64,000 bases of DNA from Escherichia phage warpig. The translations under genes were made by a program, and so were the position numbers. Positions 32,803 to 33,466 of this stretch are shown here, one piece after another (the first letter of the stretch is position 1; every line of letters starts with the position of its first letter). The stretch is taken from the sequence record MN850637.1, one strand, 5' to 3'. The notes under the pieces are model-generated. The model saw only the letters and a list, made by a program, of their open reading frames with translations, did no database searches and had not been told where the DNA came from.

Positions 32803-32884
32803 CGGGGCGTATCTCATCTGTCTTCTAAACAGACGTTAACCGAGTAAGTGGAGTATGCGGGTTCGAGTCCTGCCGCCTCGACCA
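32803..32884 (+). tRNA. tRNA-like gene, non-canonical fold (stem-loop with UCU in anticodon position; no clear D-arm)
   Basis: acceptor CGGGGCG/CGCCTCG, T-arm GCGGGTTCGAGTCCTGC, CCA; internal arm TCTGT-CTTCTAA-ACAGA displaced. Confidence 0.35.
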
Positions 32885-32898
32885 ATTTTGGAGAAATC

Positions 32899-33246
32899 AT
32901 GAAAACTTGTATTAGGTGCAAACTTAGCAAGGATGAAAATGATTTCTACATGAAAGATGGTAGGAGAACTCATTCATACTGTAAAAAGTGTGTTAATGAG
33001 CAAACCATAGAAAGACAAAGAGCACTTAAACTCTCAGCTATTGAGTACAAAGGTGGGGTTTGTCATGATTGTGGTAAGAAATATCATCCAGCAGTGTATG
33101 ACTTCCATCATTTGAATCCTTCAGATAAAGATTTTAACATTGGTCATAGGAAAAGCCTTAAGTTCTCTCAAGAACTAAAAGATGAACTTGACAAATGTGT
33201 TTTGCTATGTTCAAATTGCCATAGGGTAAGACATGCAAAGTATTAG
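32899..33246 (+). CDS. HNH homing endonuclease embedded in the tRNA cluster
   Basis: ATG at 32899 after GGAGAAA; Cys-rich zinc-finger N-terminus and HNH core ...DFHHLNPSDKDFNIGH...LLCSNCHRVRH; track ORF starts at GTG inside the preceding tRNA-like gene. Confidence 0.65.
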   Translation: MKTCIRCKLSKDENDFYMKDGRRTHSYCKKCVNEQTIERQRALKLSAIEYKGGVCHDCGKKYHPAVYDFHHLNPSDKDFNIGHRKSLKFSQELKDELDKCVLLCSNCHRVRHAKY

Positions 33247-33382
33247 TTAGCAGATTACTTAGACGACCTAAGCGGGTCTTCCTGTAGGGAGGTGGTCTGT
33301 ATCTCATGTTTTCCAGAACATGTAAATAATCTGAGAAGGGGCTTTACAGTGTTGAGATAATACGGTAAGCTTCGAATTATAG

Positions 33383-33466
33383 TGTGGGACGATGTTAAGA
33401 CTCTAAGGCATGAGCAACGGCTTCCAACACCGTTTCAAAGGGGTTCAACTCCTCCGTCCCATGCCA
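33383..33466 (+). tRNA. tRNA-like gene, atypical (possible Trp, CCA anticodon in AACGG-cTTCCAAca-CCGTT arm)
   Basis: acceptor GTGGGAC/GTCCCAT, T-loop GGGGTTCAACTCC, CCA; 83-84 nt with extra internal nucleotides. Confidence 0.3.

What the first reader, a model, noticed from the sequence alone, without database searches (positions are those of the whole stretch)
32803..33466. Non-canonical tRNA-like genes flanking the HNH endonuclease gene
Both elements (32803-32884 and 33383-33466) have convincing acceptor stems, T-arms and CCA ends, but their internal regions do not fold into a standard D-arm/anticodon-arm layout (extra 6-8 nt; displaced stem-loops). The HNH endonuclease ORF starts inside the 3' part of the first one. 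These may be tRNAs disrupted or remodelled by the mobile endonuclease, tRNAs with insertions, or tRNA mimics.
Basis: inference. Interest (0 to 1): 0.5.

Follow-up and report, generated by a model that had tools for sequence, protein, structure and literature searches.

The report
Two odd-shaped phage tRNA genes
Both elements are real, conserved transfer-RNA genes of a Felix O1-like phage: an arginine tRNA from a widespread phage family with a rearranged D-arm that I found described nowhere, and a tryptophan tRNA with an oversized connector; neither was damaged by the neighbouring endonuclease gene.

Summary
The window comes from a Felixounavirus tRNA cluster. Element 1 (32803-32884) and element 2 (33384-33466) exist as described, and comparison with relatives shows both are selected structures.

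Element 1 belongs to a family found in more than 70 unrelated phage contigs. It has a normal acceptor stem, anticodon arm and T arm, but no D hairpin. Instead, a 3-bp helix joins the 5' connector (CUC) to the first GAG after the anticodon arm. This helix covaries through nine pair combinations and is paired in 51 of 51 sequences. A D-loop-like UAAYYGGAGUAU follows it. Every anticodon in the family is an arginine anticodon: UCU, CCU, UCG and ACG.

In 33 related (Ounavirinae) loci, the slot holds either element 1 or a canonical tRNA-Arg(UCU), never both.

Element 2 is restricted to Ounavirinae. It has anticodon CCA, G73 and a 10-nt connector where 2 nt is normal. Compensatory changes occur in its D, anticodon and T stems. 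It is the only candidate tRNA-Trp in these clusters.

The HNH gene probably starts at 32890, after the CCA of element 1. Relatives without the HNH gene carry the same two elements, so HNH did not remodel them. Function in translation is inferred, not shown.

The parts
32803..32884 (+). Element 1: non-canonical tRNA-Arg(UCU) gene, 82 nt including the encoded CCA
   Evidence: Rfam tRNA 33.4 bits, above the gathering score of 29. Family model R1 gives 101 bits. 51-sequence alignment A2.
32803..32809 (+). Element 1 acceptor stem, 5' strand (pairs with 32874-32880); in this phage it contains a G3.U70 pair
   Evidence: All 7 pairs covary across the family and 99.4% of cells are paired. G3.U70 occurs in only 7 of 51 sequences.
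32813..32815 (+). CUC: 5' strand of the new 3-bp helix that replaces the D hairpin (pairs with GAG at 32842-32844)
   Evidence: 100% paired in 51 sequences; two of the three pairs show changes on both sides (12 and 6 sequences). Pairing with the second GAG fails in the 12 sequences where the middle base differs. Nine pair combinations were seen.
32817..32833 (+). Element 1 anticodon arm UCUGU-CUUCUAA-ACAGA; anticodon UCU at 32824-32826
   Evidence: All 5 pairs covary. The stem is GCGGU/ACCGC in Felix O1 and GCUGU/ACAGC in JLBYU32.
32834..32841 (+). Conserved 8-nt bulge CGUUAACC between the anticodon stem and the GAG strand
   Evidence: C-R-U-U-A-A is invariant in alignment A2. It is replaced by UCA in the distant variant L048 2689-2766.
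32842..32856 (+). GAG (3' strand of the new helix) followed by the D-loop-like segment UAAGUGGAGUAU, which contains the GGA motif
   Evidence: Columns 42-55 of A2 are invariant except for the two Y positions. The resemblance to the D loop AAUUGGAUA of the canonical KhF1 tRNA-Arg comes from reading the sequence.
32857..32873 (+). Element 1 T arm
   Evidence: 98.8% paired, three pairs covarying.
32890..33246 (+). Free-standing HNH endonuclease gene (118 aa), an optional insertion between the two tRNA genes
   Evidence: Pfam HNH PF01844 at 17.5 bits, below the 21.4 cut-off. Annotated as HNH in relatives. Absent from JLBYU32 with a clean junction.
33343..33380 (+). Promoter-like sequences just upstream of element 2 (TTTACA-17-TAAGCT read by eye; TTGAGA-17-AATTAT from the scan)
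   Evidence: (9 of 12 matches) and the sequence. The corresponding -35 hexamer is TTGACA in VpaE1_ev78. These are consensus matches only.
33384..33466 (+). Element 2: non-canonical tRNA-Trp(CCA) gene, 83 nt including the encoded CCA; anticodon CCA at 33424-33426
   Evidence: Alignments A1 and A4. RNAalifold predicts the same fold independently. Pair counts.
33391..33400 (+). Invariant 10-nt connector GAUGUUAAGA between the acceptor stem and the D stem (2 nt is normal); G33391 may pair with C33455, giving an 8-bp acceptor stem and a 4-bp T stem
   Evidence: Invariant in all homologues. The A49.C65 mismatch is conserved, while G8-C65 is always possible.
33401..33414 (+). Element 2 D arm: 3-bp stem CUC/GAG with loop UAAGGCAU
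   Evidence: The middle pair changes from U-A to A-U in Mooglevirus and Suspvirus (4 of 10 sequences). It is CAU/GUG in Pectobacterium phage Wc4-1.

Best explanation
Both elements are functional phage tRNA genes with unusual bodies. They are not remnants and not products of the HNH gene.

Element 1 is the phage's tRNA-Arg(UCU). It belongs to a phage-specific structural class in which the D hairpin is missing. The nucleotides after U8-A9 (U-CUC-A) run straight into the anticodon stem. After the anticodon arm come an 8-nt bulge, then GAG, which pairs back to CUC, and then a single-stranded D-loop-like segment (U-AAYYGGAGUA-U) that leads into the T arm.

My inference is that CUC/GAG is the D stem with its two strands in swapped order along the chain. 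On this reading the GG, the following A (the candidate A20 that ArgRS recognises), A14, A21 and the A15/U48 pair keep their usual roles, and an L-shaped molecule still forms. It would be charged by the host ArgRS and would read AGA, the phage's commonest arginine codon.

Element 2 is the phage's only tRNA-Trp(CCA). It is an ordinary cloverleaf with four departures from the norm. It has a 10-nt connector between the acceptor stem and the D stem. Its D stem is only 3 bp. It carries conserved 31.39 and 49.65 mismatches. It may have an 8-bp acceptor stem with a 4-bp T stem.

Shown: the sequences, the conservation, the covariation, the Arg-only anticodon set and the allelic complementarity with canonical tRNAs. 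Inferred: expression, processing, aminoacylation, the three-dimensional fold and use on the ribosome.
For: Element 1
- Family breadth: more than 70 IMG/VR contigs of 5-500 kb, plus GenBank T5-like, Justusliebigvirus and jumbo phages.
- Fold: 98.6% of 1020 pair cells are paired and 17 of 20 pairs show changes on both sides; slid controls give 34-46%.
- The new helix is 100% paired and covaries. The rival register fails.
- Anticodons found are UCU, CCU (L053), UCG (L254) and ACG (L048), all arginine.
- In 33 of 33 Ounavirinae loci the slot holds either element 1 or a canonical tRNA-Arg(UCU), never both and never neither. Large clusters with element 1 lack a canonical Arg-UCU, while 9 of 9 without it have one.
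- AGA makes up 41% of arginine codons (16.6 per 1000) in the window's ORFs, and the window has no other tRNA with an arginine anticodon.
- CCA is encoded in 38 of 51 sequences, and the discriminator is A or G in 46 of 51.
- The family is almost absent from bacterial genomes: 4 hits, all on metagenome-assembled (MAG) contigs.

Element 2
- 235 Ounavirinae records carry it.
- Compensatory changes occur in the D, anticodon and T stems: 6 pairs, 99.5% of cells paired.
- The anticodon loop keeps U33, CCA and A37.
- G73 and A1-U72 (G1.U72 in this window) match E. coli Trp identity elements (established knowledge).
- 0 of 35 loci with element 2 have a canonical tRNA-Trp, and Trp is the only amino acid missing from the fullest clusters. 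This agrees with the 26 tRNAs for 19 amino acids reported for Sf14 (PMC12482277).
- VpaE1_ev78 has a canonical tRNA-Trp, plus another HNH gene, in exactly this slot behind the same promoter.
Against: - There is no expression, processing or charging data.
- Single-sequence folding energies are unremarkable.
- ARAGORN misses both elements, and element 2 fails every Rfam gathering score.
- Element 2 varies little. Its six covarying pairs trace to perhaps three lineages, and one variant (L202) breaks a T-stem pair.
- The linkers of element 1 are invariant, so the proposed tertiary contacts (A14, A15/U48, G18/G19, A20) cannot be tested by covariation.
- In this phage, element 1 has G3.U70 plus A73, the alanine identity set, so it might be mischarged by AlaRS.
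- A few contigs carry both a family member and a canonical tRNA-Arg(UCU) (L026, L167).
- E. coli ArgRS is known to rely on a D-loop nucleotide, and that nucleotide's presentation is changed here.
Confidence: 0.68

Rival explanations
1. They are anti-defence tRNAs or decoys. On this view the unusual bodies were selected so that the phage's Arg and Trp decoders escape, or soak up, host or rival tRNA-cleaving nucleases that recognise the normal tRNA body or elbow. For arginine this could be a colicin-D-like enzyme that attacks all tRNA-Arg isoacceptors. Translation may or may not still be served. This overlaps with the best explanation and mainly concerns why the shape is odd.
For: - The architecture is confined to arginine anticodons of four kinds. 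That fits a pressure acting on tRNA-Arg as a class.
- The family is phage-specific and spread across unrelated phages.
- Some members have A38 changed to C (CUUCUAC).
- Published work shows phage tRNAs evading tRNA-targeting immunity (PMC10264068, PMC11464382, PMC11555353, PMC13056530).
- Colicin D specificity for tRNA-Arg comes from my own knowledge.
Against: - No defence system is known that recognises the D arm of tRNA-Arg.
- Many related phages do well with a canonical tRNA-Arg(UCU) in the same slot (21 of 33 loci).
- The anticodon loop, the usual nuclease target, is the ordinary CUUCUAA.
- Nothing here tests cleavage.
Confidence: 0.2
2. They are alleles that ride with homing endonucleases. 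On this view the non-canonical gene sequences are cleavage-resistant versions of the tRNA-Arg/Trp target sites, carried along with adjacent free-standing HNH genes. Their spread between phages would then reflect homing rather than any RNA-level advantage.
For: - In the sampled Ounavirinae loci the HNH gene is found only next to element 1 (4 of 12 loci), never next to the canonical allele (0 of 21).
- Unrelated endonuclease-like ORFs sit directly downstream of family members in Riker (HNH_3, 24.8 bits) and, judged from motifs read by eye and not scanned against a profile library, in L028, L034 and L055.
- VpaE1_ev78 swaps element 2 for a canonical tRNA-Trp plus another HNH gene as one cassette.
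Against: - Most family members have no adjacent endonuclease.
- 8 of 12 Felix-like element-1 loci lack the HNH gene.
- Homing does not explain the strict RNA-level covariation, the invariant linkers or the Arg-only anticodons.
- Endonuclease genes are common throughout phage tRNA clusters.
- The association is not corrected for phylogeny.
Confidence: 0.07
3. They are decaying pseudogenes or tRNA fragments left by disruption from the HNH insertion.
For: - Standard tRNA finders fail on them.
- They lie next to a mobile gene.
- One element-2 variant has a broken T-stem pair.
Against: - Relatives without the HNH gene have the same sequences.
- Compensatory substitutions maintain every helix.
- The linkers are invariant across phages whose stems have diverged completely.
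- The HNH gene lies outside both elements.
Confidence: 0.02
4. Element 1 is the tRNA-like domain of a phage tmRNA whose message part lies just upstream (tag ANDNVFLAVA at 32648-32677). Together they would perform or block trans-translation.
For: - The Rfam tmRNA model matches 32560-32884 (24.6 bits, E = 7.5e-8).
- This phage's element 1 has G3.U70 and A73.
- The tag frame is conserved with synonymous changes.
- ARAGORN-based genome announcements report a 'tmRNA' in Felix O1 and Moogle (PMC4319497, PMC4392139).
Against: - The score is below the gathering score of 47.
- G3.U70 is present in only 7 of 51 family members, and the acceptor stem covaries freely.
- The upstream module and element 1 occur independently in different phage groups.
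- In KhF1 and Moogle the module is followed by a canonical tRNA-Arg instead.
- The hairpin is an anticodon arm carrying Arg anticodons.
- tmRNA curators did not list Felix O1 among phages with ssrA (PMC4131195).
Confidence: 0.03

Closest known systems
Canonical phage tRNA-Arg(UCU), for example the gene in the same slot of Felixounavirus KhF1 or Mooglevirus Moogle/Sf14
   Same: - Same genomic slot and same flanks.
- Same anticodon loop, CUUCUAA.
- Normal acceptor stem, T arm and encoded CCA.
- D-loop-like AAUUGGA motif.
   Different: - Element 1 has no D hairpin.
- The strand that pairs like the D stem lies after the anticodon arm.
- An 8-nt bulge is present.
- Only one nucleotide lies where the 5-nt variable loop normally sits.
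D-arm-lacking mitochondrial tRNAs of animals (for example mt-tRNA-Ser(AGY)); own knowledge and PMC2797822, PMC11571959
   Same: - No D hairpin.
- Acceptor stem, anticodon arm and T arm are retained.
- The anticodon arm is effectively lengthened by extra pairs stacked on it.
   Different: - Those tRNAs are mitochondrial, reduced, mostly serine-specific, and have short replacement loops.
- The phage family keeps a complete D-loop-like sequence with GG and a strongly conserved 12-nt 3' junction strand.
- The phage family is arginine-specific, 82 nt long, and would have to work with bacterial factors.
- No common ancestry is implied.
tRNA-Sec and allo-tRNAs (8/5, 9/4, 8/4 or 9/3 acceptor/T-stem geometry; own knowledge: Mukai et al. 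2017)
   Same: The best Rfam match for element 2 is tRNA-Sec. An 8-bp acceptor stem with a 4-bp T stem is possible, because G8-C65 can always pair while A49.C65 is always a mismatch.
   Different: - No long variable arm.
- No 6-bp D stem.
- The anticodon is CCA, not UCA.
- The score of 22.4 bits is far below the gathering score of 47.
- The extra length lies in the connector between the acceptor stem and the D stem.
tmRNA tRNA-like domain
   Same: T arm, acceptor stem with G3.U70 and A73, and ACCA end in this phage. A tmRNA-like tag region lies 120 nt upstream.
   Different: - G3.U70 is not conserved in the family.
- An anticodon arm with Arg anticodons is present.
- The two modules are distributed independently.
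Phage tRNAs that evade tRNA-targeting immunity, such as T5 tRNA-Lys versus PARIS and anticodon-loop variants (PMC11464382, PMC10264068)
   Same: Phage-encoded and non-host-like tRNA variants that are conserved across phages.
   Different: The known cases differ by point changes in the anticodon loop or stem. Here the whole D domain is rebuilt and no cognate defence system has been identified.

Membership tests
tRNA (Rfam RF00005 / cloverleaf) | Score at or above the curated gathering score of 29 bits | tested here: met
   Element 1 scores 33.4 bits. Element 2 does not reach it; its only hit is tRNA-Sec at 22.4 bits.
tRNA (Rfam RF00005 / cloverleaf) | Four-arm cloverleaf with a D hairpin between the acceptor stem and the anticodon arm | tested here: not met
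   Element 1: the D arm is deleted in the model alignment and replaced by a long-range 3-bp helix. Element 2 does have a D hairpin (3 bp, covarying), but its connector is 10 nt.
tRNA (Rfam RF00005 / cloverleaf) | Acceptor stem, anticodon arm with a 7-nt loop (U33, purine 37) and T arm maintained by compensatory change | tested here: met
   Element 1 family: 17 of 20 pairs show changes on both sides. Element 2: 6 pairs do; its loop is closed by a conserved C.A mismatch.
tRNA-Arg (isoacceptor identity) | Arginine anticodon with C35 and U/G36, discriminator A/G73, and an A20-type nucleotide after G18G19 (E. coli identity rules, own knowledge) | tested here: met
   Anticodons are UCU, CCU, UCG and ACG only. 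The discriminator is A or G in 46 of 51 sequences. The GGA motif is invariant. Actual charging by ArgRS cannot be tested here.
tRNA-Trp (isoacceptor identity) | Anticodon CCA, G73 and an A1-U72 pair (E. coli identity rules, own knowledge) | tested here: met
   CCA and G73 are invariant. The 1-72 pair is A-U in 7 of 10 sequences and G.U in 3 of 10. Charging is not testable.
Functional tRNA | Expressed, processed by RNase P, aminoacylated and used by the ribosome | not testable with these tools
   Only indirect support is available. There are promoter-like sites, an encoded CCA, complementarity with canonical alleles and codon demand.
tmRNA (RF00023) | Score at or above the gathering score of 47 bits, with 5' and 3' ends forming one tRNA-like domain around the message region | tested here: not met
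   24.6 bits for a truncated match and 16 bits for the internal match. No 5' acceptor strand lies upstream of the tag. ARAGORN calls only a 'permuted' tmRNA, and only at lowered thresholds, by borrowing a neighbouring tRNA.
tmRNA (RF00023) | Conserved G3.U70 alanine identity in the acceptor stem | tested here: not met
   G.U at pair 3-70 in 7 of 51 family members; the others are GC, AU, CG or UA.
tRNA-Sec / allo-tRNA | 13 bp of acceptor plus T stem in 8/5, 9/4, 8/4 or 9/3 geometry | tested here: inconclusive
   Element 2 can form 8+4 = 12 bp. G8 and C65 never vary, so there is no covariation to use.
tRNA-Sec / allo-tRNA | Long variable arm and an extended D stem | tested here: not met
   The variable region is 5 nt (UCAAA) and the D stem is 3 bp.
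D-armless mitochondrial-type tRNA | D hairpin absent, short replacement connector, extended anticodon stem | tested here: met
   This is a resemblance of shape only. There is a 3-nt 5' connector, and a 3-bp helix stacked on the anticodon stem. The family differs in having a 12-nt D-loop-like 3' junction strand. No homology is claimed.

The most novel reading that the evidence does not exclude
Diverse tailed phages carry a previously undescribed class of working tRNA whose core is rewired. The two strands of the D stem are swapped in order along the chain, so the anticodon arm sits 'inside' the D domain and the D loop leads directly into the T arm. This design is used only for arginine. It would have been selected because it keeps ArgRS and ribosome function while escaping (or being orthogonal to) something that acts on normal tRNA-Arg bodies, such as an arginine-tRNA-specific nuclease.
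Probability: 0.3. Interest if true: 0.85.

Novelty: new variant of a known kind. Interest (0 to 1): 0.64.

Why it matters
The cloverleaf connectivity of tRNA is among the most conserved features in biology. Known exceptions are mostly reduced mitochondrial tRNAs.

If this family is charged and decodes AGA, the cloverleaf chain order is not required in bacterial translation. The family works with bacterial enzymes, is arginine-only, and keeps all the usual tertiary-contact nucleotides while changing the order of the D-stem strands. It would also offer a natural scaffold for engineered orthogonal tRNAs.

Practically, standard annotation misses or mislabels these genes. They appear as 'tRNA-OTHER', as 'hypothetical protein', or are left unannotated. 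As a result, phage tRNA repertoires, and codon-usage or tRNA-adaptation analyses built on them, are systematically incomplete. An example is the report of 26 tRNAs for 19 amino acids in Sf14. Felix O1-like phages probably cover all 20 amino acids.

Finally, the Arg-only restriction points to an unknown selective agent acting on tRNA-Arg during infection.

Tried and rejected
1. Element 1 as a tmRNA tRNA-like domain. The tmRNA model hit, G3.U70 and the upstream tag prompted this idea. I rejected it when the family showed free acceptor-stem covariation, Arg anticodons and a distribution independent of the tag module.
2. Pairing of CUC with the second GAG (GGAGUAU). It fails in all 12 sequences where the middle base differs.
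3. A small hairpin CCG-AGUAAG-UGG inside the 3' linker, from the minimum-free-energy fold. It overlaps the covarying GAG strand and is not supported.
4. A 4-bp D stem GUU(A)/(G)AGC for element 2, from the Rfam tRNA-Sec alignment. The A-to-U change in Mooglevirus breaks it, whereas CNC/GNG is kept.
5. ARAGORN at default settings finds neither element and no tmRNA. At lowered thresholds it gives only chimeric 'permuted tmRNA' calls.
6. Single-sequence folding z-scores are uninformative.
7. Rfam searches of the tag module in Kuttervirus, a Klebsiella siphophage and Kolesnikvirus found no tmRNA hit at E <= 0.01.
8. Eight full-text literature searches found no description of either tRNA architecture. 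Those aimed at unusual phage tRNAs were. The library is incomplete, so prior description elsewhere cannot be excluded.
9. A search of one genome from each of 185,579 bacterial and archaeal species for the family gave only 4 hits, all on MAG contigs.
10. Looking for the same architecture with non-arginine anticodons, using patterns that left the anticodon loop free, found none.
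Full report
**Where the window comes from.** Window 32555-33480 is 98-99% identical to Escherichia phages tootiki, heid and Alf5, and 94% identical to Salmonella phage Felix O1. The window is therefore a Felixounavirus genome. The finding lies inside its tRNA cluster, where ARAGORN finds 21 tRNAs between 31707 and 36416.

**Checking the observation.**
- Element 1 (32803-32884) has the acceptor stem CGGGGCG/CGCCUCG, the T arm GCGGG-UUCGAGU-CCUGC, A73 and CCA.
- Element 2 (33384-33466, or one base more) has the acceptor stem GUGGGAC(G)/(C)GUCCCAU, the T arm GGGG-UUCAACU-CCUC, G73 and CCA.
- ARAGORN reports neither.
- Rfam's tRNA model accepts element 1 at 33.4 bits (gathering score 29), but only by deleting the D arm and inserting 20 nt in the variable region.
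- Element 2 reaches only 22.4 bits, on the tRNA-Sec model, far below that model's threshold of 47.
- Folding energies of the single sequences do not differ from shuffled controls. The sequence alone therefore cannot show that the elements are more than chance; relatives are needed.

**The HNH gene.** Only the maximal ORF (GTG at 32848) overlaps element 1. An ATG at 32890 with a GGAG upstream lies 6 nt after the CCA. Its product is a 118-aa protein with a weak HNH match (17.5 bits, below Pfam's cut-off of 21.4), and relatives annotate it as HNH. Phage JLBYU32 lacks the gene precisely: it reads ...ACCAATTT|AGTTAGCAG..., and both elements are intact there. The HNH gene is an optional insertion between two pre-existing genes. 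It did not remodel them.

**Element 1 is an allele of tRNA-Arg(UCU).**
- The hairpin UCUGU-CUUCUAA-ACAGA becomes GCGGU/ACCGC in Felix O1 and GCUGU/ACAGC in JLBYU32. These are compensatory changes around an unchanged anticodon-type loop carrying UCU.
- In phages KhF1, Moogle, Sf14, Mordin, CHB7 and Wc4-1, the same slot holds a canonical tRNA-Arg(UCU); in the first five it has the same flanks.
- Across 33 Ounavirinae loci the slot contains either element 1 (12 loci) or the canonical gene (21 loci), never both and never neither.
- In large clusters, those with element 1 lack a canonical Arg-UCU, and all nine without it have one.
- AGA is the most used arginine codon in the window's ORFs (41% of Arg, 16.6 per 1000). 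The window has no other tRNA with an arginine anticodon.

**Element 1 belongs to a large family.**
- Distant BLAST found the 84-nt core at about 86% identity in T5-like Klebsiella phages, where it is annotated 'tRNA-OTHER'. It also found it in Justusliebigvirus VEcB and relatives, Proteus phage Mydo, Klebsiella phage KpS8, and jumbo phages of 321 and 361 kb.
- Pattern scans of IMG/VR recovered more than 70 contigs of about 5 to 500 kb.
- A scan of one genome from each of 185,579 bacterial and archaeal species gave four hits, all on MAG contigs. The family is essentially phage-specific.
- Members usually sit inside tRNA clusters.

**Anatomy of the family.** I aligned 51 distinct sequences, all 82 nt long with no indels.
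- The acceptor stem, anticodon stem and T stem vary freely but stay paired.
- The following segments are invariant or nearly so: U8-A9-U-C, the loop CUUCUAA, C-R-UUAA, and G-U-AA-YY-GGAGUAU-G.
- When I relaxed the scan so that the linkers were not fixed, the two bases after UAUC and the two bases before G-UAA turned out to covary. The combinations seen are CUC/GAG, CGC/GCG, CUU/AAG, CAC/GUG, CAG/CUG, CAU/AUG, CGU/ACG, CGG/CCG and CCC/GGG.
- Counted on the alignment, the four-helix structure is 98.6% paired, and 17 of 20 pairs show changes on both sides. No shuffle out of 500 reaches the observed values, and slid registers give 34-46% pairing.
- The new helix (columns 11-13 with 40-42) is paired in 51 of 51 sequences, with double changes in 12 and 6 sequences.
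- The alternative register using the second GAG fails in every sequence where the middle base differs.
- RNAalifold on its own recovers the three classical helices but not the 3-bp helix.
- A covariance model built from this structure scores family members at 96-104 bits, including 101 bits for the window's copy. Canonical tRNAs score 36 bits or less.

**How I read the structure (inference).** In standard tRNA numbering the chain runs as follows.

| Segment in chain order | Assigned tRNA positions |
|---|---|
| Acceptor stem, 5' strand | 1-7 |
| U, A | U8, A9 |
| U-C-N-N | 22-25 |
| A | 26 |
| Anticodon arm | 27-43 |
| 8-nt bulge | none |
| N-N-G-U | 10-13 |
| A-A-Y-Y-G-G-A-G-U-A | A14, R15, Y16, Y17, G18, G19, A20, two extras, A21 |
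| U | U48 |
| T arm | 49-65 |

On this reading the D stem exists, but its two strands come in swapped order. The anticodon arm is enclosed by it, and the D loop leads straight into the T arm. All the nucleotides that normally build the tRNA core are present and invariant: U8, A14, the A15/U48 pair, G18G19 and A21. So is the A after GG that E. coli ArgRS uses. The loop sequence resembles the D loop AAUUGGAUA of the canonical KhF1 tRNA-Arg. The helix is shown by covariation. The tertiary contacts and the L-shape are inferred, and because these positions never vary they cannot be tested by covariation.

**The family is arginine-only.** With the anticodon loop left free in the search patterns, the anticodons found were:
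- UCU, the great majority, with loops CUUCUAA, CUUCUAC or UUUCUAA;
- CCU (L053);
- UCG (L254).

A more distant variant with a 3-nt bulge carries ACG (L048 2689-2766). All four are arginine anticodons and none belongs to another amino acid. The discriminator is A or G in 46 of 51 sequences and CCA is encoded in 38 of 51. This fits recognition by ArgRS and argues for a real decoding role. It also suggests that whatever favoured this body acts on tRNA-Arg specifically.

**Element 2.**
- Distribution: it occurs in 235 phage records, essentially all Ounavirinae (Felixounavirus, Mooglevirus, Suspvirus and a Pectobacterium phage). No listed record annotates it as a tRNA.
- Compensatory changes (alignments): the D stem changes from CUC/GAG to CAC/GUG and CAU/GUG. 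The anticodon stem changes from ACGG/CCGU to UAAG/CUUA and UAGG/CCUA. One T-stem pair changes from G-C to U-A.
- Fold support: the fold is 99.5% paired with six doubly changed pairs, and RNAalifold predicts the same structure unaided.
- Anticodon loop: it keeps U33, CCA and A37 (CUCCAAA, UUCCAAC or UUCCAAA).
- Identity elements: G73 is invariant, and the first pair is A-U or G.U. These match E. coli Trp identity elements (own knowledge).
- Anomalies: there is an invariant 10-nt connector GAUGUUAAGA where 2 nt is usual, and the D stem is only 3 bp. The 31.39 pair is a conserved C.A mismatch. The 49.65 pair is a conserved A.C mismatch that may be replaced by a G8-C65 pair, giving 8/4 geometry. 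That pair never varies, so this point is undecided.
- Role: none of 35 loci with element 2 has a canonical tRNA-Trp, and Trp is the only amino acid missing from the fullest clusters. This agrees with the published count of 26 tRNAs for 19 amino acids in Sf14 (PMC12482277).
- Allele swap: in VpaE1_ev78 the element is replaced, behind the same promoter-like sequence, by a canonical tRNA-Trp(CCA) plus a second HNH gene.
- Conclusion: element 2 is best read as the clade's tRNA-Trp. The evidence is thinner than for element 1, with few independent lineages and one variant that has a broken T-stem pair.

**Rival explanations.**
- Pseudogenes or HNH damage are excluded by the conservation pattern and by the relatives that lack the HNH gene.
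- The tmRNA-domain idea for element 1 is excluded for the family. G3.U70 occurs in only 7 of 51 members, and the tag module and the tRNA occur independently.
- An anti-defence origin of the odd body is plausible and compatible with a translational role. It is untested, and many sister phages manage with the canonical allele.
- A homing-endonuclease hitch-hiking role has some support. HNH sits next to element 1 in 4 of 12 loci and next to the canonical allele in 0 of 21. Endonuclease-like ORFs lie downstream of several unrelated members: HNH_3 in Riker by Pfam, the others judged by eye. This cannot explain the RNA-level constraints.

**Comparison with what is known.** Functionally these look like ordinary phage tRNAs that supply AGA and UGG decoding. 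Structurally, element 1 resembles D-armless mitochondrial tRNAs in lacking the hairpin and in having an extended anticodon helix. It differs in keeping a full D-loop sequence in a new chain position, in being bacterial-virus encoded, and in being arginine-specific. Element 2 resembles tRNA-Sec and allo-tRNAs only in a possible 8/4 geometry, and it lacks their long variable arm. Eight full-text searches of the held literature found no description of either architecture; those aimed at unusual phage tRNAs were. The library is incomplete, so I rate this as a new variant of a known kind rather than claiming certainty.

**Verdict.** The most interesting result is the element-1 family. It is a widespread, phage-specific, arginine-only tRNA class with a rearranged D domain supported by strong covariation. 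Whether it is charged and decodes remains to be shown.

Noticed in passing
window 32570-32798 (promoter-like TTGACA-17-TATAGT at 32570-32598; tag frame 32648-32677, stop codons 32678-32683): A conserved RNA module directly upstream of element 1 resembles the message part of tmRNA. It has AAAAUAAAU followed by GCA AAC GAC..., encoding ANDNVFLAVA**, then pseudoknot-like hairpins. The Rfam tmRNA score is 24.6 bits (E = 7.5e-8), below the gathering score. The tag frame is kept with synonymous third-base changes in other phage groups: ANDAQFLAVA in Erwinia phage Hena2, ANDNTFLAVA in Kuttervirus Maynard, and ANDTELLAVA in Klebsiella phage P5026. In Maynard and P5026 no tRNA-like domain was found nearby. 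This is probably what genome announcements call the Felix O1/Moogle 'tmRNA'. tmRNA curators did not list it. Its function is unknown (PMC4319497, PMC4392139, PMC4131195).
   Followed up: partly
window 32835-32841 and 33394-33400: Both odd tRNAs carry GUUAA plus two nucleotides immediately before the strand that acts as the 5' strand of the D stem, followed by U-AA..GG. In element 1 this reads C-GUUAA-CC-GAG-UAAGUGG; in element 2 it reads GAU-GUUAA-GA-CUC-UAAGG. It could be a shared structural or protein-binding module, or coincidence. The distant variant L048 lacks it.
   Followed up: no
window 32805 with 32878, and 32881: In this phage, and in 7 of 51 family members, element 1 has a G3.U70 pair; here it also has A73. 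That is the alanine identity set, so AlaRS might charge it with alanine. The feature is not conserved in the family.
   Followed up: partly
window 32036-32320: This phage lacks the tRNA-Asn, tRNA-Tyr and tRNA-Asp genes that relatives (JLBYU32, VpaE1_ev78, KhF1) carry between tRNA-Met and tRNA-Lys(UUU). The gap is about 285 nt here, against about 770 nt in relatives. The tRNA-Arg(ACG) found after tRNA-Leu(CAA) in JLBYU32 is also absent.
   Followed up: partly
L002 (VpaE1_ev78) 2336-2825: A cassette of a canonical 71-nt tRNA-Trp(CCA) plus a second, different HNH gene (134 aa) replaces element 2 exactly, from the promoter to the start of tRNA-Ser. It looks like an endonuclease-linked allele replacement.
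   Followed up: partly
L048 2689-2766; L053 13348-13429: Two divergent relatives of the element-1 architecture score 56-58 bits on the family model. One has anticodon ACG and only a 3-nt bulge (UCA). The other has anticodon UCU and the D-loop-like sequence AAUUGGAUAGAACAU, and ARAGORN calls it a 98-nt tRNA-Arg. L053 therefore carries two family members, one CCU and one UCU.
   Followed up: partly
L006 1298-1807; L028, L034, L055, L030, L016 (ORFs starting 11-77 nt after the tRNA): Endonuclease-like ORFs that do not resemble one another lie directly downstream of several unrelated family members. Riker's matches Pfam HNH_3 (24.8 bits). L028, L034 and L055 show HNH-type motifs by eye only. L030 and L016 are Cys-rich ORFs that look endonuclease-like but were not scanned.
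   Followed up: partly
window 33247-33382: The 136-nt spacer between the HNH stop codon and element 2 is conserved in relatives without HNH. It contains several short hairpins read by eye (GACC..GGUC, CUUCC-UGUAG-GGAGG, CAUGUU-UUCCAG-AACAUG) upstream of the element-2 promoter-like site. This could be a small RNA or a processing or termination signal. No intrinsic-terminator match was found.
   Followed up: no
window 31959-32035: ARAGORN calls a tRNA-Met(CAU) here that does not reach the Rfam tRNA gathering score. Its 3' end reads CUCCA and the first base looks unpaired. It is another mildly atypical member of the cluster.
   Followed up: no
L001 (Felix O1) 1548-1643 and 1800-1860: Relative to the window, Felix O1 has a ~90-nt insertion between the promoter-like site and the tag module. 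It also has a different, longer hairpin in place of window 32769-32797. The tag module therefore tolerates replacement of a peripheral hairpin, as tmRNA pseudoknots do.
   Followed up: no
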